Below, in pieces: positions 1-22,000 of a stretch of DNA of 34,078 nucleotides. Source of the DNA: Sphaeroforma arctica JP610 (Eukaryota). Below the pieces are notes generated by a model. That model did no database searches. It was not told the origin of the DNA and saw nothing but the letters and a program-made list of their open reading frames with translations. The translations under genes were made by a program, and so were the position numbers. The stretch's first letter is position 1; every line of letters starts with the position of its first letter. The DNA lies in assembly GCF_001186125.1 (NCBI RefSeq), contig NW_014040545.1, positions 113,287 through 147,364 on the forward strand. Direction: 5' to 3'.

Positions 1-1926
1 GGAAAACCGTGTTCCCCAAACACCTCCGTAAGTTTCGATGTCACCACTTCTGCTGACTTCGTGGCCGTTGCTCTTAATATCGAGTACCCCGTTGCTATAT
101 CCAAGACGTGCATTATATATCGATTTCCTGCTGCTGAAACTAGTGGCATTGGAATCATGTCGACTTGAATATGATTCCATGGATACTTTGCCATTATATT
201 GATCATCGGGTGAAATCCCTTTCGTATCACCCTCTTTCCTAGACATGTGCGACAGTTTCTCCTAACTGTTTGTGCAAGTTCCAGAGCGTTAGGCCACAAA
301 TGTCCGTTCTGCTTTAGTTGAGCAACTGTATCCTCTGCACTATGATGCCCAATCCTATGCTGACACAAGGTGAGCTGTGTGCGACGGCTTATCTCTTCCT
401 CATATGGTGAATCCGTCATGGCAACTTCCGAGGTAGCGATCGATACTAGCCGAGACGTATCTAATGGGGTGATTTTCGATACTGAGGACGGTTCGGCATA
501 TCCCAATCGTGCTGAAAACGTCGCTGGAAGGCTGTAACCATTGCGTGGGCCTACTCTGGCAATGACTGTGTGACCCCATGGTGTCTTGCCACTCGCATAC
601 TTTCCGTATTTGAGGAAGGAGTGGGATGTCCTTGGAACTAATACTGGGTCCCTTTGTAGAAGCGACTTGAATAACTGGAACCAAGGCTCGTGGGGCGCCC
701 ACGGTAGACACACCGTAGCTGTGGCCCTCTCTGATCGTATCTTGCGCAACATTCTATGGATTAATCTCCATGGTGGGTTCATCCATCCGTCTATATCTTT
801 CCAACAATGTGCAAACGCTCCGCCCCTGTCATCGTCGGTGTAGTAGCGTGGCAAATGGTGATCCTGTTGCGAAGCAAAGACATCGACATTATTCTCACCC
901 ATAATCCGTTGCGCTTGCTCAAAGTAAACTGGAAAAAGTTGCCAGCATTCTGAATATAGTACCTCCGGGTCCTCAGTCTCAACAGTTCCCTCATGAAGCC
1001 TAGACCACGCGTCTGGTAGCACGTTCTTTATACCCGGGATATGCGAGATAGTGAAATTGAAACGCGCTATGATGTGATGCCATCGTTGTAGCATCGGATT
1101 CAGCTTTAGCTGTGTGTTCATATACACCAAAGCTTTATGATCAGTCAACACTGAAAAGCGTTGACCTTCGAGATGATCCCGGAAGTGTGTGAGACCGTAT
1201 GCCAAGGCCAATAATTCCTTCATGGGTGTTGCGTAATTGTGCTGTGCGGCGTTGAGGGTCTTGCTGAAGAACATAAGGTATTGCTTCTTCCTATCTATGG
1301 TCTGGAACAATGCACCTCCAATACCGTAGTCGCTTGCATCCGTTTCGAGTTGTAAAGGTACTTCATCGACGGGAAATTTCAACACTACTGCCTCAACTAT
1401 GGCTTGCTTCATGGCATCCCAAGCTTGCTGGTGTCTCTGTTCCCACCTGTCTCCATAGACTTCCTTACGTCTCAGTCTTACGAATTCCCGGAGTGGGGCA
1501 ACTACCTCTGCAAAGTTTGGTAGGTGCTCGTGAAGAAAGTTGGCTAATCCCAAGGCCGATGCAATGTCTTTGTACTTCTTCGGGGTTGGCCAGTCAATGA
1601 GCTTGGCCTGCTTTTCATGGCAAATACCAATTCCGGCCTTCGATACTCGCTTCCCTAGGATCACGACTTCCTTGATTGCAAAATGACATTTTGAAGGGTT
1701 TAGTTTGAAACTGTGGTATGTCAGCCGCCGAATGACCTCTTTCACTACTCGCACGTGTTCCTCGTAGTCATCTGTTGCTATTATGATGTCGTCCAGGTAG
1801 TGGTATGCCGGAAATCCTCACAATATCACACTCAGTGTACACTGAAACTGCTGCGTCAGTGTGTGTAGTCCAAATGGCGCTGATGTAAAAGAATACTGGC
1901 TCTTGCCACGCGTGAAACTGAATAGA
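1..1926 (-). pseudogene. pol: pol of element A: RT, RNase H, Dam-like MTase, integrase N-terminal half
   Basis: Manual translation; not in the ORF track, presumably because the frame runs off the window edge without a stop. Motifs: SAPFGL, YLDD (1788-1799), LETDASDYGIGG, KELLAL, VLTDHKAL, IPGIKNVLPD, NPPW (768-779), HRIGHH...CRTC (H2C2), IQVDMIP (first integrase Asp). One in-frame TGA at 1818-1820; the frame is then open from 1817 to the window edge (~605 codons). Confidence 0.92.
546..947 (-). other. Dam-like N6-adenine DNA methyltransferase domain in pol of element A
   Basis: CWQLFPVYFEQAQRIMGENNVDVFASQQDHHLPRYYTDDDRGGAFAHCWKDIDGWMNPPWRLIHRMLRKIRSERATATVCLPWAPHEPWF...TVIARVGP. DVFAS at 870-884 and NPPW at 768-779 follow the DIRS MT / phage Dam pattern (W-x-L...DLFAS...DAF..W...NPP(F/W).LI..VL.K....A...LV.P.W...PWF). 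Confidence 0.85.
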
Positions 1927-2001
1927 NNNNNNNNNNNNNNNNNNNNNNNNNNNNNNNNNNNNNNNNNNNNNNNNNNNNNNNNNNNNNNNNNNNNNNNNNN
2001 N

Positions 2002-2750
2002 TCTGCACGCGTAACACGTGGTGGTCGTAGACGTGCTTGTACGTTGTGTGCTGCCTCCTCCTGTATTCGTATTCAAAATACGATATCGTTGTTGGGCCGG
2101 AAGCTGTCTACGCCGATCCCCCACATTCATCTGTGTCCGTACCCGTTGTCTGAGGATGGCATCGGTTTCTTGTATGTCTGGATTTAAAATGCGGAGAAGG
2201 CCTTCAGTCTCCAGCTGGTCCCAACCTATGTGGTGTTGTAGCGTGCGTTCATATGTCATATTACCTGTCAGGTCCTCGAGGGCCTGTATGAGGCAGTGAT
2301 TAAGCAACCGCTTGGGAAAGTCCTTGCCCTTATCTGCTCGCTCCCAAGCTCTCTTGTGAACTTCCACAATCTTGTTCAAATGTTCCCTGGCTGACTCTAC
2401 ACCTTTGGTGCGGGGATTACCCTTCGCCAACTTCTTAAAGGCAGGGTCTACGGTGGCCTTGCTCTCATGTTCACAGATTTGGACTATGACCTGTTCCGCC
2501 GGATATACTCTTAACTGATTATGGTTGTCACGGGATAGTCAATTGTGGCCTTTGCTGCCTTAAAATGTATGAGTACCTTATAGAACCAACGTACCATCCA
2601 CGACTCATCTAGTCCTGAGATATGGGCGTTCTTCAGTGCCTCTTCTAGCGTCCCTCGTGTGTCTCTATCGGCTGTGCTGCTTAATGAGGTGCCACGCGGT
2701 ACAGACGGTACGGTAGTGCAGGTAGTAGAAGAAGTAGGCGATTATGAACT
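2002..2750 (-). pseudogene. gag: gag of element A (frameshifted; zinc knuckle cut by the gap)
   Basis: ORF 1768..2430 reaches STTTTCYACR immediately before the N gap (CX2C start of a CCHC knuckle) and lies upstream of RT on the same strand. The upstream boundary is approximate. Confidence 0.65.
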
Positions 2751-2974
2751 AAATTTAGATTTAGATGAAATACACAATATTTCACCGGAGTCTATACGAG
2801 AACATAAAAGATCACCCGTAACTAGGCAGAACAGATCAGATCGATAACGGATTCGTTAAAGTACGTTCCAAAAATCCATATTATTCAGATAGTCCTAGGA
2901 GATCCGAAAGATATAGACGGCGATCCACTGAAAGTTTCGAGGGTCCACACACTCTATTGAGAATACAGCACCAT

Positions 2975-3526
2975 GAGAGAGCAAAGAAAAAAAATCCGCA
3001 AGGATATATCACGACTTTCAATACAAAGAAAGATTTTGTAAATATAGCAGCATTTGGTGCAGTAACGGGGGTAGCAGGAACGAAATAGAGATTCAGAGAA
3101 GTAGTAGACTATTTATTATCAGAAGACAACGTCGCCGAGGGGAAATTTGAGGTCGAGACAATGGCCGACCTAGTAATGTGGTACAAAAAATTGTATGTTT
3201 GACAACCACGATATTGCGTTTTATTGGATAGATATAACCGAGCGATTATTACTTGCACCATCATGGGCCATAGAGAAAAAGATAAGGGTAGTAACCTTGT
3301 TAGGCATCCAACGCCGGCCATCTGGAGTGTTGTTACAACAAAAGAGAGGGATTCAGCCAAGTATGTTTTCTCATACAGTGCCCCTGTGAACCAGACAAAT
3401 TTAGCAACAGGTCGTACTAAATTTTTCACTCAACACGTGTGCTTGCACGAAAGACATCTGTCAATTGCCGATACCGATGAGTTGGACACAGCAACTCACT
3501 GGCAGTACAACCAGTTGTACTCGTAA
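2975..3526 (+). pseudogene. Degenerate reading frame of unknown product (~180 codons, two internal stops)
   Basis: One frame reads ERAKKKNPQGYITTFNTKKDFVNIAAFGAVTGVAGTK*RFREVVDYLLSEDNVAEGKFEVETMADLVMWYKKLYV*QPRYCVLLDRYNR...QLYS* and includes ORF 3224..3526. No family recognised. Confidence 0.3.
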
Positions 3527-3605
3527 ACTACTATTAAACTACTACCCCTACTACTACTACTCCTACTACTACTACTCCTACTACTACTACTACTACTCCT
3601 ACTAA
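3527..3605. repeat. (CTA)n / (CTC) microsatellite
   Basis: Direct inspection. Confidence 0.9.
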
Positions 3606-4163
3606 TCTCGAAACAAAAAAGTATCAAATGAATAAAGCTACTACTACCCACACTACTTATCGGAATTATCAAATGAACAAACCTACTGCCCACACTACTT
3701 ATCAAAATAATCAAAAAAAAATATAATTATTCCTACATCAAAATGAAAAACTATAAAAATCTTCACGTAGGATTCGAACTAATGACTTTACACCACACAA
3801 TAGTAGTGGTAATATAAATTTTTTAAGGATATATAGTATTCTATATAGTAATATAACTACTGACCTGGTAACATAAAATACATTACATGCTTATCACTAC
3901 ACCACACATTAGTAGTAGCAGAAGCAGTTTTTAGGGTAAATATAACCCTATACAAAAATACTACCCATATTAATATTTACTACTAAATACTACCCATTTT
4001 GAATGAAATATACTACTACTATGTATTTTTATTTATTGCTCTCTCTTTAAGAAGCTTTGATATGTATATAGTATGTTATCAGAAATCACTGCGGTCACGA
4101 CTACTGTATCGTTCATTCGATTCACTGCGTTTGCGATCACTTAGTTCATCACATAGATTGATT

Positions 4164-4265
4164 TCATCGTCAACCGGATGTGCTGCTTCATCGTCAACCG
4201 GATGTGCTGCTTCATCTTCAACCGGATATGCTGCTTCATCTTCAAACGTATGTGCTGCTTCATCT
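4164..4265. repeat. 24-bp tandem repeat, ~4 copies (tcatcgtcaaccggatgtgctgct)
   Basis: Direct inspection; reads (D/E)DEAAHPV in minus-strand ORF 4079..4501. Confidence 0.9.
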
Positions 4266-4641
4266 TTAACCTTGCTAATCAGGGTAAACTCGCCAGTATC
4301 ATGATTATAAAAGCCATGTTTCCAATTTTCAGGCACACGAACTAGGATTGGTTCAGTAGTATCAGCACTGCTAGTACCAAGATTCCCACTGTTCGCAGCA
4401 CTACTAGCACAACGATTACCACCACCGGCCTGACGCTTTCCTTTCCGAGTATTCGGCGTAGTATGCGTAGTAGATGTAGTAGGCGCACTTGGTATGACCA
4501 CCTGTCTGTGAGACTGCGCACTAATGCCAGTAGCAGCAGTAGTAGCACTGTGCGAAGTAGTATGTGTGTAGTACGTGTATTCCGAGTTCTATCGCTTGTC
4601 CGAAGCATAACAGGTGGAGGCAATGGTGGTCCCGTTAAACT

Positions 4642-5510
4642 TGCCTGTGTACGAGACTACGCACTACCAGTAGAAGTAGCACTGTGCGGAGTAGTAGGAG
4701 CACTACGAGTCTTACGACGTACCAATATCTCAGGGCTGTTATTATCTGGTGTCAAGACTGCCTGTGTACGAGACTACGCACTACCAGTAGAAGTAGCACT
4801 GTGCGGAGTAGTAGGAGCACTACGAGTCTTACGACGTACCAATATCTCAGGGCTGTTATTATCTGGTGTCAAGACTGCCTGTGTACGAGACTGCGCAATA
4901 CTAGCAGTAGTAGCAGTGTGCGGAGTAGTACGAGCACTACGAGTCCTTACGACGTGTCGATATATCAGGGCTGTTATTATCTGGTGTCAAGACTGCCTGT
5001 GTACGAGACTGCGCACTACCAGCAGTAGTAGCACTGTGCGGAGTAGTACGAGAACTACGAGTCCTACGACGTGTCGATATCGCAGGGCTGTTATTATCTG
5101 GTGTCAAGACTGCCTGTGTACGAGACTGCGCACTACCAGCAGTAGTAACACTGTGCGGAGTAGTACGAGAACTACGAGTCATACGACGTGTCGATATCTC
5201 AGGGCTGTTATTATCTGGTGTCAAGACTGCCTGTGTACGAGACTGCGCACTACCAACAGTAGTAGCACTGTGCGGAGTAGTACGAGCACTACGAGTCCTA
5301 CGACGTGTCGATATCTCAGGGCTGTTATTATCTGGTGTCAAGACTGCTTGTATACGAGACTGTGCAATACCAGCAGTAGTAGCACTGTGCGGAGTAGTAC
5401 GAGCACTACGAGTCCTTACGATTATCACTGTGCGGAGTAGTAGGAGCACTACGAGTCCTACGACGTGTCGATATCTCAGGGCTGCTATTATCTGGTGTCA
5501 AGACTGCCTT
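4642..5510. repeat. 117-bp tandem array, ~7 copies
   Basis: Unit starts (tgcc/tgct) at 4642, 4759, 4876, 4994, 5111, 5228, 5345 and 5505. The last unit has an internal partial duplication. The minus strand reads the 39-aa repeat RRRTRSARTTPHSATTAGSAQSRTQAVLTPDNNSPEIST. Confidence 0.95.
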
Positions 5511-5788
5511 TGTAGGTTGACTATGTCTCGGAGGGTGCTGGGCAGCAGAAGTGGTAGCACGGTAGTAGTAGTTCCGCGCGTAGTACTACGACTACCACCA
5601 GTAGGTTGACTATGTCTCGGAGGGTGCTGGGCAGCAGAAGTGGTAGTAGGGGCATCGGGTAATGATGTTGGCGATTGTGGGGGTGAGCCGGATATTGGTG
5701 TCCCTTGGTTTAATATATGAAGCCCCACTGTACCTCCGGTAGCAACCGCGAAGCTCTCAACCGTGTTATAGTGTATGGTGTTAGTTGG

Positions 5789-6130
5789 CTACAACAAACC
5801 ATCGTTCGCATCCTGGTATGATTGCTCCTCGCACCGGGACAAATAAAACCGTGGCGTTGCGGTTCGACCATTGTTCGTTCTTAAACGACCGAATTTGTAC
5901 GGTCGTTCACGACTACCGTCTCCTCCCGCAGATATATGGAAGTCCTCTTTGCGGAAATGGATACAGCATACATGGGGATTTTTGACGCTCCTGAGATATG
6001 GCCCTATTCCATGAGTCTCTATGTGGCGCAATTTAAACTGCACCAGTCTGTTTCTGAAGAACTCGCCATGCTTCATGTACACAGCGTCGGCTACAACAAA
6101 GCATTTACACACACTACGGGTGTCCGGCAT
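5789..6130 (-). CDS. THAP-like zinc-finger ORF (probably transposon-derived, possibly truncated)
   Basis: MP start, N-terminal CKC, then VCCIHFRKEDF and a downstream RL...ATPRF. This resembles the THAP C-terminal signature vCsxHFxxxdf...L...AVPTIF. The conserved Trp/Pro of the N-terminal half is not evident. Confidence 0.5.
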   Translation of the reverse strand: MPDTRSVCKCFVVADAVYMKHGEFFRNRLVQFKLRHIETHGIGPYLRSVKNPHVCCIHFRKEDFHISAGGDGSRERPYKFGRLRTNNGRTATPRFYLSRCEEQSYQDANDGLL

Positions 6131-6287
6131 ATTGTATTTTTGGTTGTTTTTAGAAAAGCTACAGTAATTTTATAAACAAATGTCAGAGTGGTTGGAATTG
6201 TCAAACATGTCCTACGAATATATATACTGTAAATTATTATACAAAATAGTAGTAGTAGTACCAGGTGTAATAGAAGCGTTGGGTGTG

Positions 6288-6678
6288 GCGCTAGTTTGAC
6301 AACACAACATCGTTGGATGTGGTAGGAGTAGTAGTATAATACGTAACTGGCCTTCTACAGGTGGTAGGAGTAGCGCTAGTTTGACACCACAATATCGTTG
6401 GGTGTGGTAAGAGTAGTAGAATAATACATAGCTGGCCTTCTACAGAATCAAGAACTGAAAAGATATATAATTGCAGATGTCGAGTTGTTTGGAGTAGCAC
6501 GAAATTGAATTGACACCACAATATCATTATTTGTCGTAGGAGTAGTAGTACAATATTTACATAGCTGGCCTTCTACAGAATCAAGTTAAAATTGCAAATG
6601 TAGAATTGCTTGGAGTAGCGCGAAATTGAATTGACACCACAATATCATTATGTGCCGTAGGATTAGTTAGCTGGCCTG
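6288..6678. repeat. Degenerate direct-repeat cluster, ~4 units sharing ttgacaccacaatatc...gtaggagtagtagt...ctggccttctacag
   Basis: Direct inspection; units near 6288, 6372, 6500 and 6620. Confidence 0.8.
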
Positions 6679-6789
6679 AGGATCATTTTGAGACTCGTGT
6701 GTATTAGTTTATATTTATATTACACATTTATATTTATTTAGTGCTGTAACCCTAAAAAACCCCCCCTGAAGATTTGAGCCTCCGATAAG

Positions 6790-6913
6790 AAAGTTTGCTA
6801 CCATTCAGAAAAAGTTTGCTACCTTACGTAAAAAGGTTGCTACCTCAAGTAAAAAGTTTGCTACCTCAAGTAAAAAGTTTGCTACCTCAAGTAAAAAGGT
6901 TGCTACCCCGAGT
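6790..6913. repeat. 21-bp tandem repeat, ~6 copies (aaaaagtttgctacctcaagt)
   Basis: Direct inspection; conserved 15-bp core with a variable 6-nt tail. Confidence 0.9.
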
Positions 6914-7122
6914 TTACAACACCATAATGTTTTAGATTAAAAAATCGACTACCTCAAAGTTGGTAGAAATATAAGTGCAAGTAGGAAATCTAAATAAACG
7001 ACAAGTTCTTTATTACTTTAAATTTTTTTGAGCAAATATAAACAATTGCCAACCGACAGTCCTCTCTCGTGTTATATTTATTGAAATAGTAGTAAATAGT
7101 AATAGTAGTAAAAAGTAGTAAA

Positions 7123-7274
7123 TACATTGCAGGGTAGTAGAAGTGGTACATTGCAGGATAGTAGAAGTAGTACATTGCAGGGTAGTAGAAGTAGTACATT
7201 GCAGGGTAGTAGAAGTAGTACATTGCAGGGTAGTAGAAGTAGTACATTGCAGAGTAGTAGAAGTAGTACATTGC
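7123..7274. repeat. 24-bp tandem repeat, ~6 copies (tacattgcagggtagtagaagtag)
   Basis: Direct inspection; it generates the repetitive ORFs at 6990-7348. Confidence 0.9.
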
Positions 7275-7296
7275 GCACTATGCACAGAAGGCGTGG

Positions 7297-7870
7297 TCAT
7301 CTATCGACCATTCGAAGCATAGTATCGCGCGTATCTTGCTTGTCATAGTAGCGTAATGTTTTCATGATAGTTGGGGTTGAAGAACGATGAAGTTCGTCAT
7401 AGCAATCGTTGTAAGCATCGTTGGTCCACTTGTCGAGTAGATCGGCTCGAAGGTCCTTCAGAGTCGGTGAGTTTGGCAAGTTTAAGTTATGCCGCTTAAG
7501 ATTTTGTAGTACTTGCGTGTCAGACATAATGTTCACCATGTACTGTAACCCAATCCCCAATTCCGCTGCTATATGATTGATTTGCTGATTCATTGGTCTC
7601 GGCTTCAATGAGTGAACTTTCAATGTGACAATTTCTAGTGTCAAAGGGATTCTCTTCGCCATCCCAATCATAACAAGTGTCACATTCTACAGATGTATAG
7701 TTATGCTGACCATCTCCAACCTGATATTCATACTCTTCTACTTCTTCTACTTCGGCAGCATCATCAACATTGGGCATTGGATTGCCAACATATGGTCTAT
7801 AGGCTTCTACCCTCACAACATCTCCTACTTCTGCATCGGTAAGTCTATCTTGCTGACTCTGCCAGTACAT
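7297..7870 (-). pseudogene. Frameshifted reading frame of unknown product (acidic stretch, CxxC, possible SAP/HeH-like helix pair)
   Basis: Overlapping ORFs 7520..7870 and 7297..7683 look like one protein split by a frameshift. MSDTQVLQNLKRHNLNLPNSPTLKDLRADLLDKW loosely resembles a SAP/LEM motif. Confidence 0.3.
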
Positions 7871-8281: not shown

Positions 8282-8327
8282 TATGTAAGTATTTATGTAT
8301 GTATGTATGTGTGTGTGTGTGTATGTA

Positions 8328-8366
<39 letters not shown>

Positions 8367-8480: not shown

Positions 8481-8529
8481 TTGTTTTACGTTTTAAATCT
8501 CCTATCGTCAACTTATTTTACTGATTCTG

Positions 8530-10405
8530 CAATTTGGGCTTACCTCCAAAGAATCCCTTGATTTTAGGACTGGTGACAATCATACGTTGATACCAATCGT
8601 ATGTGATTACGTTTTGTCTTAAAAATCTGCAGTGCTGCTTCAGAACTAACACACATGCTAGAGTCGTCTACTCCCTGTACATAAAGTTGTACCAAAACCT
8701 TTCGTACCCCGGCTGCAAAAGTTGCTTTCGGGGTTTGAAGGGGTTTCCTGGCCCATCGAGGTTGGACTATATTCAGCATCGTTTCGGGTTGTAATGGCTT
8801 CGTTTCTGATGAGATCTCATGCAGTGTCGCCACCCCTTGTTGAAACCTATCCAGTGCGGAACTAATAGCATTAGCCTTTTCACCCACAATCTCTTTGTCT
8901 TTTACTAACGCTCCCTTACTTGATACAATCGGCTTCCATACTGCAGGTACTGGACTTTGATGGTGGTGGAATGTCACTTTTCCTATATCTATGCGCGGTT
9001 GAAGACCTTCTGGCAAAGCCAATTCTTCAATCAATTCTGCCGGCGACTGGTGTTGAACGAGGTAGGAAATATATGATATGAGCGTTACTTGTACAATTAC
9101 TTATACTTATACTTCTAAAACTACTTGCACTTTTACTTCTACTACTACTCGCACTTTTGCTTCTACTACTACTTGCACTTTTGCTTCTACTACTACTTGC
9201 ACTTTTGCTTCTACTACTACTTGCACTTTTGCTTCTACTACTACTTGCACTTTTGCTTCTACTACTACTTGCACTTTTGCTTCTACTACTACTTGCACTT
9301 TTGCTTCTACTACTACTTGCACTTTTGCTTCTACTACTACTTGCACTTTTGCTTCTACTACTACTTGCACTTTACATACCATGCTTTGTTCCGATAGTTG
9401 TACGTGTCGGAATCCATCCCCTTCAATGTCACGAACGCGTGTCTTTCGCATAGTACTCTCCATCTGAGATTTGTAGCTGTGATGTTCCGACAACGTGGTT
9501 CCAAAGTGTACAACCGGTTGTTCCACAAGTTCCCCCGGTATTCATTTTTCCCTATACAGTACAGTTTCTTGTTCTATCTCATGTTCCGACTTATAAACTT
9601 CAGACATACATTCCTTAGCTTTACCGTTACAAAACCTTAAGGCCGAGGTAGTATCGTCGGTGCTCGGATCTTCGTGACCGCAGATCGCATGAATAGGACG
9701 AGCACAGCCTTTGGGAACTATTAATGAATCACCAGGCTTTTCACATTTTGTACCTGCTGCACACGTCCTCTCATCGCCAGTGCTAGTAGTATCTCAAGTG
9801 GCAGTATCTCCAGTGGTAGTATCTCCAGTAGTTTGGACAACATATTTCACGATGGAATTGTCTCGCGGGCTAATAGCCACAGAGCTACCAGTTGTTCCTT
9901 CTTGGTCACATAGTGCCCTGTAGATATCTGCAGGCGTACATATACTACCACCTTTGTTTGATTTTACATCGTGGCCTTCTACAAATCTTTGTAGCACGAT
10001 ATTCACATACGCGAAATGTGTGTCAAGCGCTGTTTCCCCCGCTTGTGCCTCTGTGAAAATCCATCGCGTTATCTTGAGCTTACCATCAGGTTATTGCATT
10101 TGAGGTGTAGTGGTGTAGTGTAAGGAGTTGGAAAATGCGGACGCATTGTCTGACTGCGTCACTATACTGGTAATATTGAGTATCGTCTTCCGCACGTGGT
10201 AAAGTAGTGCTTCAATAGCGAGCACGACAGACAGTGCGTCGTGTCCTCCGTTGTCGTCTGGTATATAATAAAAAAACGATGTCTGTAAGTGCTTGGTCGG
10301 TTCTTCGTCCCCAGATTGTACCTTGTATTCACCCCGCACGAGCATAAACCTTAGAAGAGACATCCTTGATTTGCCAAAGTACTCACTGTAAACTTTTCGT
10401 GGCTC
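8530..10405 (-). pseudogene. Relic DDD cut-and-paste transposase, Sola-like (probably Sola3-type), 5'-truncated
   Basis: In order: SEYFGKSRMSLL; HDALSVVLAIEALLYHVRKTILNITSIVTQSDNASAF (SDNA at 10142-10153); in-frame stop; KITRWIFTEAQAGETALDTHFAYVNIVLQRFVEGHDV; C-terminal WARKP...KATFAAGVRKVLVQLYVQG. This matches my recollection of the FGKxG / SDNAGCY / FSEPQxGKxxCDR / YxNEGHDV / GWAL...F...G transposase family. The superfamily label is from memory. Confidence 0.65.
9128..9373. repeat. 24-bp tandem repeat, 10 copies (cacttttgcttctactactacttg) inside the transposase relic
   Basis: Direct inspection; copies are nearly identical. Confidence 0.95.
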
Positions 10406-10849: not shown

Positions 10850-11155
10850 TCGGGGGAATCTACGACACGACATCGTTTGCCCTGCTGGCAGTATTATGAG
10901 ACGTCGTAAATACTTATTTGGTCCAGGTAGTCTCACTAGCCATATATGGTGAGGTAGACTATGGGTAAAAGGTATGTATCATACAAATAAACATCCCTTA
11001 GTCATAGTAGAAGTGGTTATAATATCTTTATTTATATTTATGTATTATAAGCTTCTACCACTATTGTGTTTAACTCGTAACTTACTATGGTTATGCTATT
11101 ACACTAAGTTACTACGTGATGTGATGGTTCTGTACTAAGACCCGGGTATTACACA
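10850..11155 (-). repeat. 3' LTR of element B (start defined, far end uncertain)
   Basis: Minus strand reads ttcaaagctggcggggggc|TGTGTAATACCCGGG, mirroring element C's tttcaaagatgggtgggggc|TGTGTAATAGCCGGG PPT/LTR junction. Confidence 0.6.
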
Positions 11156-11165
11156 GCCCCCCGCC
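11156..11165 (-). promoter_or_regulatory. Polypurine tract of element B
   Basis: G-rich ggcggggggc directly abutting the LTR start TGTGTAAT. Confidence 0.6.
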
Positions 11166-11489
11166 AGCTTTGAAGCATTGTACTGTGTTTGCCCTATTAA
11201 CCATGTACACATACAAGAAGCGAAAATTTAGCTAAGAAACGGGTCGCGGTGTATTAGACACCTGGGCAGAAGTTATTCAATATAGTCTATATCCATCCTA
11301 TTCCGTTTGGGTCGTGGTCCCCTAGGGACAAGAAATTGTGTTTGTCTGCGTTTGTTACTTGGCTTCTGAGTCATAGTCTCAGGAAGGTGTGGGATAAGTT
11401 GTGTATAAGGATACCACTTCGCATTTTTGTCGTCCACTTGTGGGAACGTTCGGGTTTTATCGGCATCACTTTTGTGTAACCGTTTACGC

Positions 11490-11640
11490 CACTTCTTATT
11501 GAATGAACGTATGTAATCCGGATTGTCAAATACATCTGACGCTAACCATAAGATAGTGTCATCGTGAAATCGAGTCATATAATAAGTTACATCGTTCCTT
11601 GTTTCACAACCAATTATATCCTTAAACTCTTCGATCAAAC
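11490..11640 (-). other. Chromodomain-like module at the integrase C-terminus (element B)
   Basis: EEFKDIIGCETRNDVTYYMTRFHDDTILWLASDVFDNPDYIRSFNKKW follows the pattern eVe.Il..r.....Y.v+w......Wep...f.....I..y, at the position where chromoviruses carry a chromodomain. Confidence 0.55.
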
Positions 11641-11817
11641 GGCGCAGCACTATCATGTGTGCGAGACAAAGTTATATCACTCGTCGGTTTTCTATGTAAA
11701 TCCATACTTTGTGCGCTACTGCCATCTAAGTTCACCACTCCATAAGTATTGCTCTTAGTGTCACGATAGCTTATTTTACATGGTCCGACGTGTCGACTTG
11801 ACAATGAATTCATATTC

Positions 11818-12260
11818 AGAAGCCGTATTATATATCCGTTAATAACGTTTTACGTCGTCAGCCCGAGAGTAATTTGGGACTTGTTGTCTCAAATTAATAA
11901 GAGTATAGGTGGGTCAGCCCGAGGGAACGTAAGAGTAATTTGAGACTTCTTCTCAGATTATTCTATTTATAGGACACGGGCCACCGGCTAGCCGAGAGCC
12001 GAGGTCCGAGACTGAGTGTAGTAACAGAAAATACGATATATTTATTTCTAGAAAATATATCCGAGTGCTAAAGTGTTCTGCATAAGGTTTCTCATACTGA
12101 TCATATGAGTTTTTACCCAGGCCACCCAAAGTGGTTGAACACTAGTACAAACACCATCAGTATATAACTGAGGGTGAGATCATAAATATATTCATTCGAA
12201 TGCACCATACTTTAAATACATTAGCACTTTACTTATAGTCCCCTACACCGCACGATAACA
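11818..12260 (-). mobile_element. ~440-bp insertion in the element B integrase tail; probable solo-LTR fragment of another family
   Basis: Alignment to element C shows KLTSRY|NMNSLSSRHVGP split by this block. It starts TGTTATC on the minus strand and contains cctataaata (TATA-like) plus an internal direct repeat (cagcccgag...agagtaattt). No clear CA end or TSD. Confidence 0.5.
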
Positions 12261-13564
12261 TGTAACGGCTGGTCAGTTTCACGATGTCTCCGACTTCGAA
12301 CACTTGTATGTTGTGTTTACTGTCCTAACGTTTATGTCTTTTTAATAAGTCCTTATTCTTCATATCTCGTAGATGAGGGTATACTACTTCTTGTACTCGT
12401 TTTAGTCTTTCTAACCATGGTACGTCAGTAGTTGGTTGGTTTCCCTCGTCGTACGATACTTGTAAAGCACTTCTTCTTCCCCTAAAGTAGTGCGCGGGAG
12501 TAGTCTTTGTAACCGGGTCAGTAGTCTCGTTCATCATGGTTTGAATCCATTTAAGATGGTAGGGCCAATAACCTTCATAGTCTTCAAACTGACCGCGTAT
12601 GAGTGTTTTCATACGTCTGTTTCTAGTCTCGTTGGCTCCTTGAGTCTGAGGTTTATAAGGTACTCCACGTTTATAGTTGCGGCGGTTACGTCTTCGCAAA
12701 ACTCTGAGCAGTTGTCTGTCGCCATGATAGTTGGCCACCCGTGGTCATTAAAGACAGTATATATGACTTCCGAAATCTCTTGTGTAGTCTTGGTTCTTGT
12801 CGGTTGCAAGATATTATACCTCGAAGTTACGTCAAAGAAATGGCAGACATACTGTGACTTTGTATGCTCGGACATGGGCAACTTAACCAGGTCAATGATT
12901 ACCCTGTGCCATGGTTCGTCTTCTATTACACTTTTTAGTGGCGCAAATGCATAATGCTTGATCTGGTTATATTCACAATCCCTACAGGAGTTGTAGACTT
13001 TACGTATTATCTCCCTGAGTTTGTGATGATCAATTCCTTTTGCTTGGGCATCTCGTAGAGTAGGTCGTTCGCTAACATGTTTAAGATTGTGGTGTTGTAC
13101 AACCCAATCGTGAACTTTAAGTTCTTTTTTTTACCCATGTCACGTTGTACAGGAGATTCGTCTTCTTCCTCATTATCAGTCTCTTGACCATGCTCATCAT
13201 CATTGGACTCTTGTTTTTCCGTCGAAGTGCGTTTTGCTGATGCTGCTGATACAGCATTGCTTTCGTTGAACAATGTCATATGTCTTTCGTGTACTTCTAT
13301 CATGTCCTTCAATAGCGCCTCGAGGGTTGTAGTCTGAGCTTCAGGTGACTTGATATTTAGCCCTTTCTTAAATACTTCAGCTAGCTTGTCTACCTGTGTT
13401 GACGTTCTCTGACCCATCGTTAATACTTCTCCTTGTGAGGTCTTGTTGGTTATGATTTCCTTAGCGTATTGCTTGGTAGGAGCTTGGACTGTATTTAGAG
13501 GAATCGTAATTTCTTCCAGGTTCTTTAAAGGGGTATACGATGGGGTCCAGTTCGATTTCTTCGC

Positions 13565-13975
13565 TGGGCCTATCCGGCATATTATGGTATGCATCCAAGG
13601 GGTCTTCTTTATAGCCCGGGTACCCATATACAAAAATGCATATACTTCTCTGTTTACATATATTGGTTCACATTGTATCATTGACATTTAAACTTTTTAA
13701 GCCAGGGGTAGGATTTCCTTAAGGGACAACATAACGTTATTTCGGCATTTTGTATTTCTACGTACTGTAGTAGCTGTGGTATTAATCGCCACGGCGGGTT
13801 TGCCCAAGCGTTGTGTTTTGACAAATCTACTTGAAAGGCATCGCCTTTTGGGTGTGTAAGACTTCTATAATCTTCACATTGTTTGTTATGTTCTGCCGCG
13901 AACATATTTATCGTAAACTTCCTAAATGCTCTACTTGCTAGTTCAAACCATTTGCGATTTAGTTTCCAATCTGTG
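13565..13975 (-). other. Dam-like N6-adenine methyltransferase domain in pol of element B
   Basis: TDWKLNRKWFELASRAFRKFTINMFAAEHNKQCEDYRSLTHPKGDAFQVDLSKHNAWANPPWRLIPQLLQYVEIQNAEITLCCPLRKSYPWL, frameshift near 13687, then MIQCEP...KTPWMHTIICRIGP. Confidence 0.85.
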
Positions 13976-14158
13976 GCCATAAGTGCTTTGACAGTCTTTT
14001 GATAGTCTGGAATCAGCCTTGTCAACATATCCGGTAAGTGATTATGTTTACCTGGTATATGTGTTATGTTAAACGATAATTTAGCCAGCGTATCATGCCA
14101 TCGGCTAACTAGTTGTGAGTCAGGTTTCATATCTTTCATGTATTGTAAAGACTTTTGA

Positions 14159-14385
14159 TTATATGCTACTTCGAATGTAGTGTAGTCAGGAAGTCCCTGA
14201 CAGGGTTTATTTTGATATTTGGGTTTAATTAGAGACTACATTTTGAACTGTGTTTATCCAATCAGGTTAAAACTGATTAACGGAAAACACATGACCAAAA
14301 TGATAGTCACAGGATTTAGTTCAATCCTTGTACGAGGGGAGTACGTTGAGATACAGTTATCCTCGACTACTTACTACAGTAGTAC
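14159..14385. other. ~225-bp unrelated insertion/replacement in RNase H of element B
   Basis: Interrupts YLYGT|...|QKSLQYMKDMKPD, which is contiguous in element C as YLYGTAFTLMCDQNSLQYMKEMKPD. Confidence 0.6.
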
Positions 14386-15888
14386 CATATAGATAATCAT
14401 TGAAGTGTTGTAGAGCAGTAACCATGCCTAATAGTTCCTGTTTCAATGTAGGATATGCTCGTTGACTCTTGCTCAAACTCTTTGAGTAGAACATGACATA
14501 TCGTGGTTTACCTTCAACCATTTGGTATAGGACTCCACCTACCGCCATATTAGATGCGTCGGTAGCTACTTGGAATGGTACTCCATCCACCCGAAACTGC
14601 ATGACAGGTGCCTCCATCACTTTCTGTTTTAGAAGCTTAAATGCGTCGTCGCATTCTTTTGTCCATAGTTCGCCCAATTTGCCTTTATGAGATCTTAGAT
14701 GTGAGAAAGGTTTCATGTATTCTGCAAAGTATGGTACTCCTGTTGTAAAGAAGTTTACAAAGCCACACACTGAGTTTACGTCCTTTCCTGTAATGGGTGT
14801 CCTCCAATCTAATAAGTGTTCTCGCTTATCTGGGTCAATTTCTATCCCTTTATCAGATATAAAGTAGCCTAACAATTCTATTCTGTTTACGGCAAATTGA
14901 CATTTCTTCTCATTTACTTTGAACCGCGCCTTATTAATCGGTCAAGCACTATCTTCGAGATGCGTTTATGTTCTGCAGCGGTCTTCGTATATATGACTAT
15001 ATCGTCGATATATACTTGTACATAATCTGTTAAATCTGCGAACAGCTCCATCATAACTTGTTGGAAGAATGAGGGTAGCTTATGTAATCAAAGAGGTGCT
15101 CCTCGAAAATGATACTTCACTACGCTCCACTGAAAGCTAAAATACTTTCTGTGTTCTTTATATATGTTCATTTGGTGATAACCTTGCGTTAAGTCTATCT
15201 TCGAGAAGAACTTCGCTCCATCTAGCTATCTTAATAGCTCGTCAATACGTGGTAGATGAAAGCTGTGTGTTGTAATTATTTTGTTTAATGGTGACATGTC
15301 CAAACACACTCTATATTTACGCAAAGACCCATCTGAATTATATTGGTCCACCGCTAACAACGTTAAGATAACTGGTGTTGGTGCATAACTCACTTCTATG
15401 ACCCCGTCTTCGAGCCATTGTTTCACCTGTGCAGTAACCTGCTCTTTATGTTTTCTAGAAACATAGTTTGTTGTTGGACACTTTAATTTTGTAAAATCTG
15501 CTTGTTCTAAGTTCAGACTTGCGTATCCTTTATTGAACCGAAATATAGCCCAATCTGTAATCTTCAGACGTCTATTTTGCACCAACAATTCTATTAATGT
15601 ATCCATTATATCTGGGATTAATGTTTTCACTTTGTTTGAAGGTGCTTCGGGAGTAAAGAATGTATCTTTCTCTCTTTGGTCTTTATCAGATTCAATGTTA
15701 CTTGGCAGTCCTTATATCACTATATCTAATGATAACAAGTCTGACATTCCTAATATGATGTCGTACTGTGGGCTCATTTCAAGTATTACCGCTTCTGTAT
15801 TAATTTGTCGGTAGTCTGCTAAGACTACTGTAAAGTCTTTTGCTAGTTGTGTACAAGAGATTTTTTCTTGGTTTGCTAGCACTACCGT

Positions 15889-16648
15889 TTTAATAGCCGG
15901 GCCTCCATATTAGACTCTATGTTATAAACATACTCTTAAGCAGTACGTAAAATTATAAACGTACTCTTAATAGTACAAGGAACTTAATTTTTCCTAAATG
16001 GTCTTTAATGGTTTTATTAATTAATACCTTTTCCATTTTACATATCAGATATTTGGACGAGGCCATTAAAAGGCCCCAGTAAAGTACCAAACATAAGAGT
16101 TGGTCTAGTTCTATTAATAGAACTATGTTTAGTTTCCAACTTTATTTATATCTGAATACTTCGGTAGCGAGATGGCTCAACCGAATATAGGTTTCTAGGG
16201 ACTATCAACGTTACCTAGTTGATCCTCCAATCAGCCAACCAGATGTGTCAGTCTGATGAAGGTTAAGATTCTTGATAAGTGGCAAGTTATTGGTTAAGAC
16301 AATAACTAAGGACATCAAGAGTATTTTATTATTATTAATTTTTTCTAAAGATAGGATTTTATGAGTCTCTCGGATTCGCCCCGGCGAAACATATCGTAGT
16401 TTCTAATAGAGCGACAACGAAATACTAAATAAAATCCCTTCGGCGGAAACAGTACTGAGAGGATTATATATAGGCAAGGTCTCAGCCTCACAATCCCTCA
16501 GAGTATTGCTGTTTTCACGAGGCACACCTAACTTTACTATAAGTCTCATTTCGTTTATTTACTTTGATATTTTTACACCACTTAGAATTTACTAACGCGT
16601 TTATTTACTCTAAGGCGTTAATATCGCCTTAATAGACCGAATTTTACA
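15889..16648 (+). repeat. 5' LTR of element C
   Basis: taatagccgggcc...gaattttaca, collinear with 22403-23160 at roughly 90-95% identity by eye. The initial TG is altered. TATA-like tatatatagg near 16465. Confidence 0.93.
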
Positions 16649-16775
16649 CATTTTAAGGTTAGCAAAGGTATTAATTACTTAGACTACTTAAGCGTAAAGG
16701 TAGATTAACTACCACAAACTTTTTCTTGTCCAAGCTAGTCCTTAAGAGATCAGCTAGCAGTCATAAGTTAAGATT

Positions 16776-19019
16776 ATGACCAAGAAAGACAATACTCCCT
16801 CTAAGAAGCGTAGAGCTGAAAAGAAGAAGATGAAGAGAGAAACCGCAGCCACTGCCGCCACAGAAGCAACCGCTGCCGCTGCTGATGCGTTTAACCGCAC
16901 TGTAGCCGAAGCACTTGCCTCCGACAATAATAGTCAACAGGACAATGCTTCAGATCAGGATGTAGCCACTCCGATTAAAGATACTACTCCCACTGACAGA
17001 GCCCGAGGGCCAACTATTGCCTCAACTTCAAAGCTTACATTTACGAAGCCAAGAAGTGAGACAAGGGACACGTCTCAAGACGACCCAACGAATTCTTCTG
17101 ACGAAACTCAGAAAGAAAAGTTCCCAATTATAAGAGAGCCCCCAATTATAAGGGAAATGACAAATCTCAGAAGGAACCTATAATGGAACCAGAAGAGGAG
17201 GCAAGCTCAAGTGGCAAACCCGAATCTACGTCCGAGACTACTAAGCTAACGCGCATAAGTAAGTTAATTACTGAAAACACTGATCTTAAGAATCAGTTAG
17301 CTACTTTTAAGAAAGACTTGACTGTTGAACATGTAGATCGATTGTATAGATCATGAAAACATACACAGCACTTACGTGAGCATGTTTCTCCGGGCATTAC
17401 TGAAGCCCTACAGAAGTGGACAGAACGTCGACAGGCAATTACGCCCAAAGAACGTAAAGACTCGAGCGCTACACCTGTGGCATATGAGCCAGATGTGCTC
17501 AGCGTATCTATACCTTACGAGGTACTACAACCAGAACTTCAGGCTAATTACTCGCCTGTTCTGACACCCGGCCGTAAGTCACCCGACCGTGAGTCACCCG
17601 TCCTTGAGGGTATTATAGACCCAGAGGCAGGTAGAAATATTCCGCCACCTTTACCCAATTGAGATGACAATCGTCTTTATCCAGACGCATGAACCACCCA
17701 AGATTATAATACCAACCACTATCCGAGGAACAGAGCGCCGAAAGGTCTCGACCATGGACTTTACAAGAAGTAACTAACACCCCTTTAAACGTGTTAACGA
17801 AGTCGAATTTAATCGCTTCGATCGCACAGCACTACATCAACCCGCAGAGGATTTTCACTCTGACGAGGTAACCGAACTTAACAAATCGGTCGACGATTAT
17901 ACCATTAAAATGGAAATCGCCCACGATGCGCATGCATCATGCTGAGGATGTCTCATATTTTGCTAATATGATTGCGATTAAGCAAAAGCGCATCGATCAG
18001 CTACTTCAAGCCCAACGTGGACAAGACCACAGGGATAACCAGAAGTACAAAGGACAGATCAGTCGAATTAAGTCGAACTGGGATGCCAACAGTAAGCAGG
18101 TCGAGTTTATAAACAACCATGACCCCGACACGCTAAGCCGTACGCGCAATGCGTTTACGGTCATGCTGGAGACGAATGATATCGTTCCCCAGCAATGGAT
18201 TTCCGCTTTAATGCAGACGTTTGACCATACAGGAACAAGTTACTTGATCCTACAGCGACACCAGCATGAACTAGACAATTGTCGCGACTGGCCAGCTGTG
18301 TGTTGGTCGGTTACATCCTTGTTAAGTAATGACATGCGTAGCCCAGGACTGAGTTCAATTTTAACTGAACCAGTTGAGAACACGCCCATTCAGAGTATAT
18401 TCTGAAGCTAGATGCTGACCTGAAACGTCCAGATATAACAAAGGACAAGGCGCAGCGATGGTACGAGTTCCTGATTATGCACGTGTTCTGTAAGAACATA
18501 GGGAATAACGACCGTGAGAGCCTGTACACCGAGTTGCGACGTAAACACGCGACTGAGGCTCGAGACAAGGGACATGAAACAAAGTTTCATCTATCCCGAC
18601 TTACATGAGAATAGTTTTATGATACTGTATCCACTCTTTTCCCCACACACCGAGTAACATAGAAGTGAAAAGCGACTGTTAAGAAACCGCGGGAGCAAAC
18701 CGATCGTGGATACGTATCCAGGCAGACCTCAAACGAGAGACCCCAACATACACGTGCTCGCGACTCCACACTATCCACGCGACCCAATAAACGGGCACGC
18801 GCGGAGGCGAAGGACAAGGAACCTCCATTTAAAGAGATTAAGAAATGTGCCGACGCACAGCGTGGGTATGACATGTACCAATTGACCCCTAACGGTTATT
18901 GGAATGGCAGGCATGCACCCACCTGCACACACTTTCTTATTAAGTGTGACAAGTGTGAGAAGACCAATGGCTATCACATTATGTCTTGTGACAAAAAGCC
19001 CAACATTAAGTTGGAGTGA
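16776..19019 (+). pseudogene. gag: gag of element C (stops and frameshifts)
   Basis: ORF chain 16776..17183, 17477..17662, 17926..18405, then a terminal Cys/His cluster CDKCEKTNGYHIMSC (CX2CX6HX3C). Lies between the 5' LTR and protease. Confidence 0.75.
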
Positions 19020-22000
19020 AGGTACTACCAGGTACAATCGTTACACAGACAATACAACGACTTTTTAGATGAGCGTGTAATAATACCTGTATATTGCAAT
19101 GGAAATAAAATCCTTGCGTTGATTGATCCTGGTTCTGAAATTTCATGTATATCCGATCGCTTTGCATTAATGAAAGATATCGAAAGGAGAACACAAACAA
19201 CTCCCCTTATTTTAGATGATGACAAAACATCTGAGCTTGGTACCATGGCCACAGATGTTAAAATCTCCCTGGCCGATGATAGGAATATCACTACCCAAGC
19301 TGTGATAGTTAAGATGTCACAGAAGTACGACATTATAGTCGGAATGAGCGATTTACTCACTCTAGGTATAACCGTAACTGGTCTACCAAATAACATAGAT
19401 CCATTAAAGGATCAATTAGACGATAACTGTCTGAACCCATAGAAGCCCCCGTCAGACACAGTCAAGGCATTAATACCTGACTTTGCGAACAAAACCATGG
19501 ATCTGATTCTAGTTAATAAGAAGATAAAGATCACAGATTGGGCAAAATTCCGTTTTAACGTCGGGTATGTCAGCCTTGACCTAACCAAGGTGTACTTTAC
19601 ACAGTTAAAGTGTCCCCCAAGGAACTATGTATCCTGGAGACACGAGGCTGTGGTAAAAAAACAAGTTGAGAAATGGCTAGCAGATGGAATGATAGAAATT
19701 AACTATCAATAGCAATGTACGCCTCCGATTTAGCTTTAGGAGGAGTATTATACCAGGTTATAGATAACAAACCTAGATATAAAAAATTCTTTAGTCGAGC
19801 AATGAATGTTTCACAGTCGAATTACCCAACTGTTAAACAAGAGCTATTAGCCATAGTGGCAGCTCTAACAGACGTACGAAATTACTTATACGGAACAGCA
19901 TTTACGCTGATGTGTGATCAGAATTCTCTTCAATATATGAAAGAGATGAAACCCGACTCACAATTACCGAGTCGCTGGCATGATACAATATCAAAGTTTC
20001 ATTTTGATATAAAACATCTGCCAGGAATACATAACCATTTACCGGATATGTTATCACGCTTCGTACCGGACTTTAATAAATCCGTAGATATTTGGGCCAC
20101 ATACAATAGATATGTTTGCTGCACATCATAATGCACAACTATCGAATTACAGGACTTTAAATCATCCTTTGGGAGGCGCCTTTCAAATAGACCTCTCCAA
20201 ACATAATGCGTGGGCTAGCCCACCATGGCAGTTAATTGCCCAGCTATTAAATTATGTTCATATACATAAAGCTACCATCACGTTGTGTTGCCCATTACGG
20301 AGTAAAGATCCATGGCTCAATAAATTGATCAGCATGATTCAATGCGAGCCAATGTATTTAGATAGGGAAGTAGATACTTTCCTATATCAGGGTACCCGAG
20401 CCGTTCAGAAGACGCCCTGGAGACATACTATTATATGTCGTATAGGTCCCATTGGAACAACCAAATGGACCCCTTCTGAGACCTTCCTTAACAAGGTCAA
20501 AGAATCAGAGATTCCACTCTTTACCTAACCGAAAGTTAAGCAGTTCAAAGGCAACACAGCATTTAACGTCTGTGCACAAGAAATACAATCTACTAATGAC
20601 ACTGTTAAGAAGCGTCAGTCTCTAGCTAGGACTCTGTTTAATTACATAAAGTCTAAGCCCGAGGTCTTTCAAACCTTATTTTTAAAGGGATTAATGAAAG
20701 ACAATCCTGAAGCGTATACACATATAAAGCAACTATTTAATAAGTCAGGTGTATCTAACGCACATGAGCGCGATTATGACGCTCATGCAAAAACAGGACA
20801 GGAGTCTGAAAACACTACAGACTTAGAGACCACGCAAGTGGATTCTCAACACCCTACCTTTATTCTGGAAGAGCAGAATGATAAAAACATTCTTGCTTGG
20901 CTGAAGCAACATCATAAGCTGAAGCACCAGAACGTAGTAGAAGGACTTAAAGATGCTAAGCGACATGGGATCGCGCACCCTAAGCTGGCAACTTTAGTTG
21001 ACAGAGTATATCAGTCATGCACAGACTGTGATCTCGATCAGATCAAGCGCTATGGGTTCGCAGCGCTCAAGAGTGTGACTGAAGATGTTCCATGGCGCAG
21101 GGTCATCATTGATCTGGTTGACCTGCCCACGTCCGAGCACACAGGCGGCCGTTACGTATGCCACTTCTTTGATGTGGCGTCACGGTTTAACTTGCTCTAT
21201 CCATTAAAGGATAAGAATACGCAGACCGTGGCAGAATTATGTTGCCAAGTCTTTGCTGACCACGGGTGGCCAGGCATTATGTGCACTGATAACGGTAGTG
21301 AGTTCTGCGATGACGTAATGGAATCACTAGTACTCGTATCAGGCATATGCCATAAGAGAGGTGTGCCATATAAGCAGCAAACGCAAGGCGCGAATGAAAC
21401 GCGCCATAGAAGACTTAAGTTCTTCTTGCGTACTGCATTAACGGACGATGCAGATGATTGGCCGTACCACCTTAAGTGAGTACAAACACAGATGAACGAG
21501 TGTGCTGATCCGGTTACCGGACCTACACCCGCTCACTATTTTCGTGGCAGATATAGTGAGTTACAAATCCCCTTTAACAAGGACGAACCTGATCACCATG
21601 AGTTACCATGGTTATAGAAGGTACAACGTATTTATAACGTTGTATATCCTTGCTTGCGAGAAATACGCAATGTAGCCCTATTAAAAAGGCAAAAGCGTTG
21701 GAACACTACCAAGGAGATAGCAGAGTATCAGGTCGGTGACAGAGTTAACATCCGTCAACGTAATTCCGATGCTACTGTATTATCATCTAAATGGATAGGT
21801 CAATATATAATCTCTGTAGCAGACACTAAAAGTGGAACGTACGAGGTAAATAACCCCGACGGTTCTAGTGCGCTTAATATACGCACAAGTCGTATTCCGA
21901 CTACAGAGATTATACTCGCAAGAAGACATGACTCTAATGCCCCTCTTGATCGTTCTGAATTTAAAGACATTATATGGAGAACGGATAAGGGAGGCTATAC

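What the first reader, a model, noticed from the sequence alone, without database searches (positions are those of the whole stretch)
546..20455. Gypsy LTR retrotransposons carrying a Dam-like N6-adenine methyltransferase between RNase H and integrase
Seen: three elements (546-947, 13565-13975, 20100-20455) have the same ~135-aa domain at the same pol position, directly after RNase H and before the integrase H2C2 finger. They share D/N-x-F-A, G.AF, N/S-PPW-x-LI, P...PW and KTPW.HT.I.R.GP; A and B also keep the upstream W-x-L, which is deleted in C. Established: (D/N/S)PP(Y/F/W) is catalytic motif IV of amino-methyltransferases, and a phage-Dam-like MT domain follows RNase H in DIRS-type tyrosine-recombinase retrotransposons. 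Ordinary Ty3/gypsy pol has only a linker there. Inference: this is a lineage of DDE-integrase retrotransposons that stably carries the MT, since it is kept in the divergent family A and in B/C. It may 6mA-mark its own cDNA or insertion site, for example to evade silencing or mimic host active-chromatin 6mA. I cannot verify whether this architecture is already published.
Basis: partly seen in the sequence, partly recalled or inferred. Interest (0 to 1): 0.92.

Follow-up and report, generated by a model that had tools for sequence, protein, structure and literature searches.

The report
Known methylase-carrying gypsy retrotransposons, broken copies
Three broken copies of a gypsy-type jumping gene in a single-celled relative of animals carry a conserved phage-like adenine-methyltransferase domain that likely marks the element's own new DNA copy as active, but this kind of element was already described, in this same host group, in a 2026 preprint.

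Summary
Three Ty3/gypsy copies (A 546-947 minus, B 13565-13975 minus, C 20100-20455 plus) carry a Pfam Dam (PF05869) domain between RNase H and integrase. Its model is a compact SAM-dependent adenine-methyltransferase fold (pLDDT 95) closest to phage Dam proteins. It is as conserved as RNase H between B and C.

It is not new. A host DDX20 exon in the window is 100% identical to an S. arctica protein. All three domains fall in a 100/98 clade with S. arctica and Abeoforma proteins.

All three copies are defective. Catalysis is unproven: the preprint's E. coli assay was negative, and the closest solved structure is the RNA-cap methyltransferase CAPAM/PCIF1, so the substrate is open. This scan has noted the same kind of element on other DNA (23 notes, at least 3 genomes). 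Verdict: real, already known, low interest.

The parts
3..1817 (-). Element A pol frame, 605 codons without a stop: RT C-terminal half, RNase H, Dam-like domain, integrase H2C2 finger and start of the core. It runs off the window start; an in-frame stop lies at 1818-1820 inside RT.
546..947 (-). Element A Dam-like domain, motifs intact (DVFA, NPPW)
   Evidence: Pfam Dam E 4.3e-5; PHROG 111 E 4.2e-5; model pLDDT 95; Foldseek and VIA-align
2002..2538 (-). Probable end of element A gag (a CxxC, read as the start of a zinc knuckle from recall), next to an assembly gap (N 1927-2001) that hides protease and the start of RT
   Evidence: sequence; no Pfam gag hit
11153..15885 (-). Element B: protease end, RT, RNase H, Dam-like domain, integrase, purine tract and start of the 3' LTR (11153). 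Several stops and frameshifts; cut at its 5' side by element C.
13565..13975 (-). Element B Dam-like domain (NPPW kept; motif I Asp replaced by Asn; frameshift near 13687-13690)
   Evidence: Pfam Dam E 5.3e-7
15889..16648 (+). Element C 5' LTR
   Evidence: 704 of 753 aligned bases identical to the 3' LTR
16649..22402 (+). Element C internal region: gag-like part, aspartic protease (19020-19442), RT start with about 270 codons of the RT core deleted near 19706, RNase H (19703-20086), Dam-like domain, integrase core (about 20856-21600), purine tract. No chromodomain hit.
20088..20456 (+). Element C Dam-like domain (DMFA, SPPW; N-terminal W-x-L helix deleted)
   Evidence: Pfam Dam E 0.0097
22403..23160 (+). 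Element C 3' LTR (TG...CA ends)
23161..23980 (-). gag fragment of the B/C family in the opposite orientation, abutting C's 3' LTR
   Evidence: 79-92% DNA identity to C 17503-18460

Best explanation
These are three defective copies, from two divergent families, of the published ichthyosporean DAM-LTR Ty3/gypsy retrotransposons, whose Pol carries a conserved domain predicted to have an adenine-methyltransferase fold and which likely N6-methylates the element's own cDNA or RNA-DNA intermediate so that the host would treat the new insertion as active chromatin. Shown here: domain order PR-RT-RH-MT-IN, LTRs, profile match, purifying selection and clade membership (about 0.95). Predicted: the fold. 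Inferred (about 0.55): in intact relatives the domain is made as part of Pol and packaged with RT and integrase. Its 134-residue model has no separate target-recognition domain, so it would get its substrate by being tethered next to the nascent DNA. After integration the host 6mA enzyme AMT1 would keep the mark and favour transcription of the copy (the preprint's model). The three copies here cannot do this on their own.
For: Pfam Dam in all 3 copies. Model pLDDT 95.2; best viral matches are phage DNA N-6-adenine methyltransferases, E 5.6e-8 to 4e-7, TM 0.74-0.80. NPP[W/F] is kept in 18 of 20 clade rows and the motif I Asp in 18 of 19 rows that reach it. B vs C: MT 70% amino-acid identity over 119 codons, pN/pS 95% interval 0.16-0.32 with synonymous sites saturated; RNase H 59%, 0.24-0.42. 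9 of 30 scanned hits have RT-RH-Dam-integrase in one frame. MT tree: 100/98 clade with 2 S. arctica and 3 A. whisleri proteins. Host exon 100% identical to an S. arctica protein. The preprint reports more 6mA-positive insertions and higher expression for DAM-LTRs than other LTRs in S. arctica and A. whisleri, and association with AMT1.
Against: No activity has been shown: the preprint's expression of DIRS, DAM-LTR and adintovirus DAMs in dam-minus E. coli gave no extra 6mA. The 6mA enrichment is a correlation that host AMT1 acting on transcribed copies could give. 4 of 13 DAM-LTR species lack AMT1 in the preprint's screen, and Euglena DAM-LTRs are not more expressed. Iyer et al. (PMC4738411, passage) call the related DIRS1 domains likely inactive. 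The best solved-structure match is an RNA enzyme, CAPAM/PCIF1 (Z 10.8, rmsd 2.9, 128 aligned), ahead of T4 Dam (Z 8.1, rmsd 2.7, 104 aligned). In these copies B has lost the motif I Asp and C has SPPW. The first RT/RH tree with DIRS rows did not recover the MT clade (p-AU 0.052), though one row was mis-cut there.
Confidence: 0.55

Rival explanations
1. The domain is active, but on RNA: like its structural relative CAPAM/PCIF1 it N6-methylates an adenosine of the element's own transcript (cap-adjacent or internal), stabilising the RNA or aiding packaging. Genomic 6mA over the copies then follows from transcription and host AMT1.
For: Top PDB matches are CAPAM/PCIF1 (Foldseek E 4e-4; VIA-align Z 10.8), then rRNA adenine methyltransferases KsgA/Erm. 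22 of 62 alignment members also hit Pfam PCIF1_WW at E<=0.1. Iyer et al. place DIRS1 MTases in the PCIF1 clade. The E. coli test read only genomic DNA.
Against: Phage Dam models match far better than viral PCIF1-like ones (E 1e-7 vs 2e-4). 49 of 62 members hit Pfam Dam, best E 2e-18 against 1.7e-6 for PCIF1_WW. The PDB ranking may only reflect that no close relative has been solved (0 sequence hits). The three window domains do not hit PCIF1_WW.
Confidence: 0.15
2. The domain is a non-catalytic nucleic-acid or SAM-binding module (a tether or spacer between RNase H and integrase, or a 6mA reader that steers integration into 6mA-rich active chromatin), kept for binding and not for chemistry.
For: Negative heterologous assay. 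DIRS1 domains judged likely inactive. Among 46 DIRS-like hits, 9 have F, Y, V or H in place of N before PP[FW] and 6 lack the motif. Insertion into methylated regions could also give the reported enrichment.
Against: Within this clade both the SAM-binding Asp and NPP[W/F] are nearly invariant over deep divergence, as expected of an enzyme.
Confidence: 0.25
3. The domain is a neutral passenger left from recombination with a DIRS element.
For: All three copies in the window are broken.
Against: pN/pS well under 1 and higher identity than RNase H, integrase (55%) or the adjacent linker (39%) between B and C; kept in frame in long intact relatives.
Confidence: 0.03

Closest known systems
Ichthyosporean DAM-LTR lineage (Fernandez-Moreno et al., bioRxiv 10.64898/2026.05.21.726589; whole main text read, figures and supplements not available)
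   Same: Ty3/gypsy organisation, DAM domain in Pol, no chromodomain, same host species, NPP triplet kept, same proposed mechanism; the MT domains group with S. arctica and A. whisleri proteins.
   Different: Nothing of kind. The copies here are defective. The text does not state the exact place of the DAM for this lineage (it is probably in Fig. 2B, not seen) and does not mention PCIF1/CAPAM (0 occurrences).
DIRS1-type tyrosine-recombinase retrotransposons with an MT domain (Iyer et al. PMC4738411 and de Mendoza et al. PMC5890265, passages read)
   Same: Homologous MT domain placed directly after RT-RNase H; 46 of 149 classified hits look like this.
   Different: DIRS use a tyrosine recombinase and end Pol at the MT; these elements have a protease, direct-repeat LTRs and a DDE integrase, and their RT-RH separates from the DIRS-like rows at 100/100.
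Phage N-6-adenine methyltransferases, Pfam PF05869 / PHROG 111
   Same: Profile match and best predicted-structure match.
   Different: Free-standing phage enzymes acting on phage DNA; only 14-24% identity in the top 10 structural matches.
CAPAM/PCIF1 cap-specific adenosine N6-methyltransferase (PDB 6irw, 6irx)
   Same: Closest solved fold, Z 10.8 over 128 residues.
   Different: Cellular RNA enzyme with extra domains, about 14% identity; no evidence here that the substrate is shared.

Membership tests
Ty3/gypsy LTR retrotransposon | Pol order protease-RT-RNase H-integrase | tested here: met
   C: protease 19020-19442, RT start, RNase H, rve in this order; B and A agree where present
Ty3/gypsy LTR retrotransposon | RT/RNase H of Ty3 type | tested here: met
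   A matches Ty3 Gag-Pol at E 5e-39, against 9e-16 for the next non-Ty3 chain; split from DIRS-like rows 100/100. No Repbase reference set was available.
Ty3/gypsy LTR retrotransposon | DDE integrase with H2C2 finger | tested here: met
   rve E 1.2e-7 (C), 1.2e-4 (B); H2C2 in A; A's core is cut by the window start
Ty3/gypsy LTR retrotransposon | Direct-repeat LTRs with purine tract | tested here: met
   C LTRs 93.5% identical, 3' LTR TG...CA, purine tract before it; B purine tract and LTR start
Ty3/gypsy LTR retrotransposon | Target-site duplication and tRNA primer-binding site | tested here: inconclusive
   No matching 4-5 bp duplication around C, which sits in rearranged element DNA; primer site not identified (host tRNAs not available)
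Ichthyosporean DAM-LTR lineage | DAM domain encoded in a gypsy-like element | tested here: met
   only B passes the preprint's E<=1e-5 screen threshold in my Pfam scan
Ichthyosporean DAM-LTR lineage | Ichthyosporean host | tested here: met
   DDX20 exon 32326-32613 is 100% identical over 96 aa to an S. arctica protein; next hit 76%
Ichthyosporean DAM-LTR lineage | DAM domain in one clade with S. arctica / A. whisleri / P. gemmata DAM-LTRs | tested here: met
Ichthyosporean DAM-LTR lineage | No chromodomain | tested here: met
   No Pfam hit on the tail of C, and no Chromo hit on the tail of B or on the closest intact relatives P0003 and P0010; A's tail is outside the window
Ichthyosporean DAM-LTR lineage | RT-RH tree concordant with the DAM clade | tested here: inconclusive
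   89/89 for the 13 rows among 17 LTR-class rows; not recovered with DIRS-like rows in, p-AU 0.052, one row mis-cut
Ichthyosporean DAM-LTR lineage | 6mA enrichment and expression of insertions | not testable with these tools
   No methylation data; reported for the species in the preprint
DIRS retrotransposon | Tyrosine recombinase in place of DDE integrase; no protease | tested here: not met
   rve and aspartic protease present
Active amino-methyltransferase | Motif IV (N/D/S)PP(Y/F/W) and motif I acidic residue | tested here: met
   A has both; B lacks the Asp; C has SPPW; motif numbering is from established knowledge, recalled
Active amino-methyltransferase | Demonstrated methyl transfer | not testable with these tools
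   The preprint's assay on representatives was negative

The most novel reading that the evidence does not exclude
The DAM of gypsy and DIRS elements is not a DNA methylase but a retroelement-borne counterpart of CAPAM/PCIF1 that methylates the element's own RNA or the RNA strand of the RT hybrid. That would explain the negative E. coli DNA assay and why DIRS keep the domain in hosts without 6mA. The structural tie to PCIF1 was noted for DIRS by Iyer et al.; the 2026 preprint's main text does not consider it.
Probability: 0.15. Interest if true: 0.65.

Novelty: already known. Interest (0 to 1): 0.15.

Why it matters
The class matters: retrotransposons that may write their own 'active' 6mA mark invert the usual picture of methylation as silencing, and what the DIRS/LTR Dam domain methylates is still open. 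This window adds little to that. It holds three defective copies in a species that the preprint already profiled. The modest additions are a pairwise selection estimate, the deep split between the A and B/C families inside one host, and the reminder that the nearest solved structure is an RNA-cap methyltransferase, so RNA and hybrid substrates should be in any assay.

Tried and rejected
No whole genome was held, so copy number and genome-wide dN/dS were not computed. Two word-indexed homolog searches with the MT region of A found nothing (0 of 59 and 0 of 145 candidates); the full HMMER scan found 1639 hits, so those blanks were a sensitivity limit. The profile of alignment A1 found no solved structure by sequence. 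No RNA holder was listed among sequencing runs; runs guessed to be RNA were contigs only, so expression is not shown. Variation among copies across the MT alone was not obtained, so selection within family A is untested. dS between B and C is saturated, so only pN/pS is given; A vs B/C is too divergent. The first RT-RH tree had row P0010 cut at the wrong motif (seen) and was rebuilt without DIRS rows. Rows dropped: P0016 (repetitive, 14 stretches) before classification; 74 of 85 fragment rows before the MT tree; 31 of 46 DIRS-like rows before the first RT-RH tree; 4 of 18 LTR rows with little or no RT-RH before the second. ApT, CpG and GATC content of the elements showed no consistent signal. 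No tRNA genes in the window. The preprint's reference on a caulimovirus DAM was not found. Rejected: chance motif, DIRS element, neutral passenger.
Full report
Observation. Element A has a 605-codon pol frame (3-1817, minus) with the end of RT, RNase H (residues 125-253), a Dam match (292-381) and the integrase H2C2 finger. Pfam PF05869 Dam scores E 4.3e-5 on A alone, 5.3e-7 on B and 0.0097 on C; PHROG 111 'DNA methyltransferase' also matches A and B but not C. The listed motifs are all present. The combined motif pattern occurs 3 times in the window, against one match in 2 of 200 shuffles.

Anatomy. C is a whole LTR element, 15889-23160 on plus, with LTRs 93.5% identical (704 of 753 bases), a purine tract, protease, RNase H, MT and integrase core. 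Mapped against the intact relative P0010, it lacks about 270 codons of the RT core and has stops and a frameshift. B (11153-15885, minus) keeps RT, RNase H, MT and integrase with several stops and frameshifts, one inside the MT, and is cut by C. A has a stop at 1818-1820 in RT and an assembly gap above it. None is an autonomous copy. A's RT-RH matches Ty3 Gag-Pol at E 5e-39, far ahead of the next chains (E 9e-16 and weaker).

Fold. AlphaFold2 on a 62-sequence alignment gave pLDDT 95.2 and pTM 0.89 for the 134-residue A domain. The best viral models are phage DNA N-6-adenine methyltransferases (E 5.6e-8 to 4e-7, TM 0.74-0.80). Among solved structures the best is CAPAM/PCIF1 (Foldseek E 4e-4; VIA-align Z 10.8, rmsd 2.9, 128 aligned), then rRNA adenine methyltransferases, with T4 Dam at Z 8.1. 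Of 62 alignment members 49 hit Pfam Dam and 22 hit PCIF1_WW at E<=0.1. The domain is therefore an adenine-N6-methyltransferase fold; the fold does not tell DNA from RNA.

Selection. Over 119 aligned codons the MT of B and C is 70% identical in amino acids, pN 0.196, pS 0.853 (saturated), pN/pS 95% interval 0.16-0.32. RNase H gives 59% and 0.24-0.42 over 127 codons, integrase 55%, the MT-integrase linker 39%. The domain was under purifying selection in the lineages leading to B and C. Selection within family A was not tested.

Relatives. A full HMMER scan gave 1639 hits at E<=0.001, of which 150 were listed. By my own score rules 149 were classed as 18 LTR-type, 46 DIRS-like (recombinase not checked) and 85 fragments. 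Of 30 hits scanned with Pfam, 9 have RT, RNase H, Dam and integrase in that order in one frame. In a tree of 78 of 152 MT rows, A, B and C lie in a 20-row clade at 100/98. In this clade NPPW or NPPF is kept in 18 of 20 rows. The RT-RH tree separates LTR from DIRS-like rows at 100/100, but did not recover the MT clade (p-AU 0.052, with one mis-cut row). Rebuilt on 17 LTR-type rows it gives the 13 clade rows at 89/89. A host DDX20 exon in the window is 100% identical over 96 residues to an S. arctica protein, the next hit being 76%.

Literature. A search for retrotransposon, adenine methyltransferase, gypsy, DIRS and integrase gave 2 papers. I read the whole main text of bioRxiv 10.64898/2026.05.21.726589; figures are not held and its supplements are closed, so the drawn domain order for this lineage and the sequence lists were not seen. 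[quoted passage not shown] It reports more methylated insertions and higher expression than other LTRs in S. arctica and A. whisleri, association with AMT1 (9 of 13 species), and no activity in dam-minus E. coli. Its model is deposition of 6mA on RNA-DNA intermediates, kept by AMT1. From PMC4738411 I read passages only: DIRS1 MT domains are placed in the PCIF1 clade and called likely inactive. From PMC5890265 I read passages only: Dam-like domains were known in DIRS, and a cytosine methyltransferase in a charophyte gypsy. Four further searches and one on DIRS (listing only, apart from PMC4738411) showed no earlier report of gypsy with Dam. Earlier notes of this scan record the same kind of element in at least 3 other genomes and name the same preprint; I had found the preprint before that call and did not check their DNA.

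Mechanism. Shown: order of domains, LTRs, conservation and lineage. Predicted: the fold. Inferred: the domain, carried in Pol with RT and integrase and lacking a separate recognition domain in the model, acts on the nucleic acid next to it, most likely the new cDNA or hybrid, seeding 6mA that the host reads as active chromatin (0.55). Rivals: a non-catalytic binding or targeting module (0.25), an RNA methyltransferase like PCIF1 (0.15), a passenger (0.03). Nothing done here tests catalysis.

Verdict. Real feature, correctly read, but a member of a lineage described in May 2026 in this host species, and represented here by defective copies. Novelty: already known. Interest 0.15.

Noticed in passing
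window 25556-32622 (minus): Multi-exon host DEAD-box helicase gene of DDX20 type, with a 968-codon open frame at its 3' end that has no Pfam hit.
   Followed up: partly
window 15885-23980: Element C sits between B's protease (cut at 15885) and an oppositely oriented gag fragment (23161-23980). It may have inserted into one element with loss of about 0.7 kb, or between two; the gag fragment is closer to C (79-92%) than B's pol is (63-76%), and no target-site duplication is seen.
   Followed up: partly
window about 20070-20100: The deletion that removes C's W-x-L helix falls at a short stretch resembling both the start of the helix in B and the residues after it, which suggests a microhomology-mediated deletion.
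   Followed up: no
proteins P0026 (2382 aa) and P0034 (2144 aa): Odd polyproteins with an Exo_endo_phos endonuclease, then Dam, RT, RNase H and integrase H2C2 in one frame (P0026 also has a protease first): a LINE-like endonuclease in an LTR-like Pol, with Dam before RT. Host unknown; may be the Euglena chimeras that the preprint mentions.
   Followed up: no
window 1-2600: Family A looks abundant and variable: 5829 and 4328 contigs of runs X1 and X5 lay on it, and one contig of X11 covers 1-1926 with 62 differences. Depth there is no copy number.
   Followed up: partly
window 4525-5527, 7099-7290, 9037-9420, 6769-6913: Tandem arrays with units of 117, 24, 24 and 21 bases between elements A and B.
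   Followed up: no
window about 24560-24600 (plus): A short frame reading like the start of a non-LTR endonuclease (an ETW motif, label recalled) after an unannotated 102-codon frame at 24157-24465; possibly a decayed LINE fragment.
   Followed up: no
window 11150-15885: GATC is under-represented in B (observed/expected 0.36) but not in A (0.95) or C (1.14); small counts, no control.
   Followed up: no
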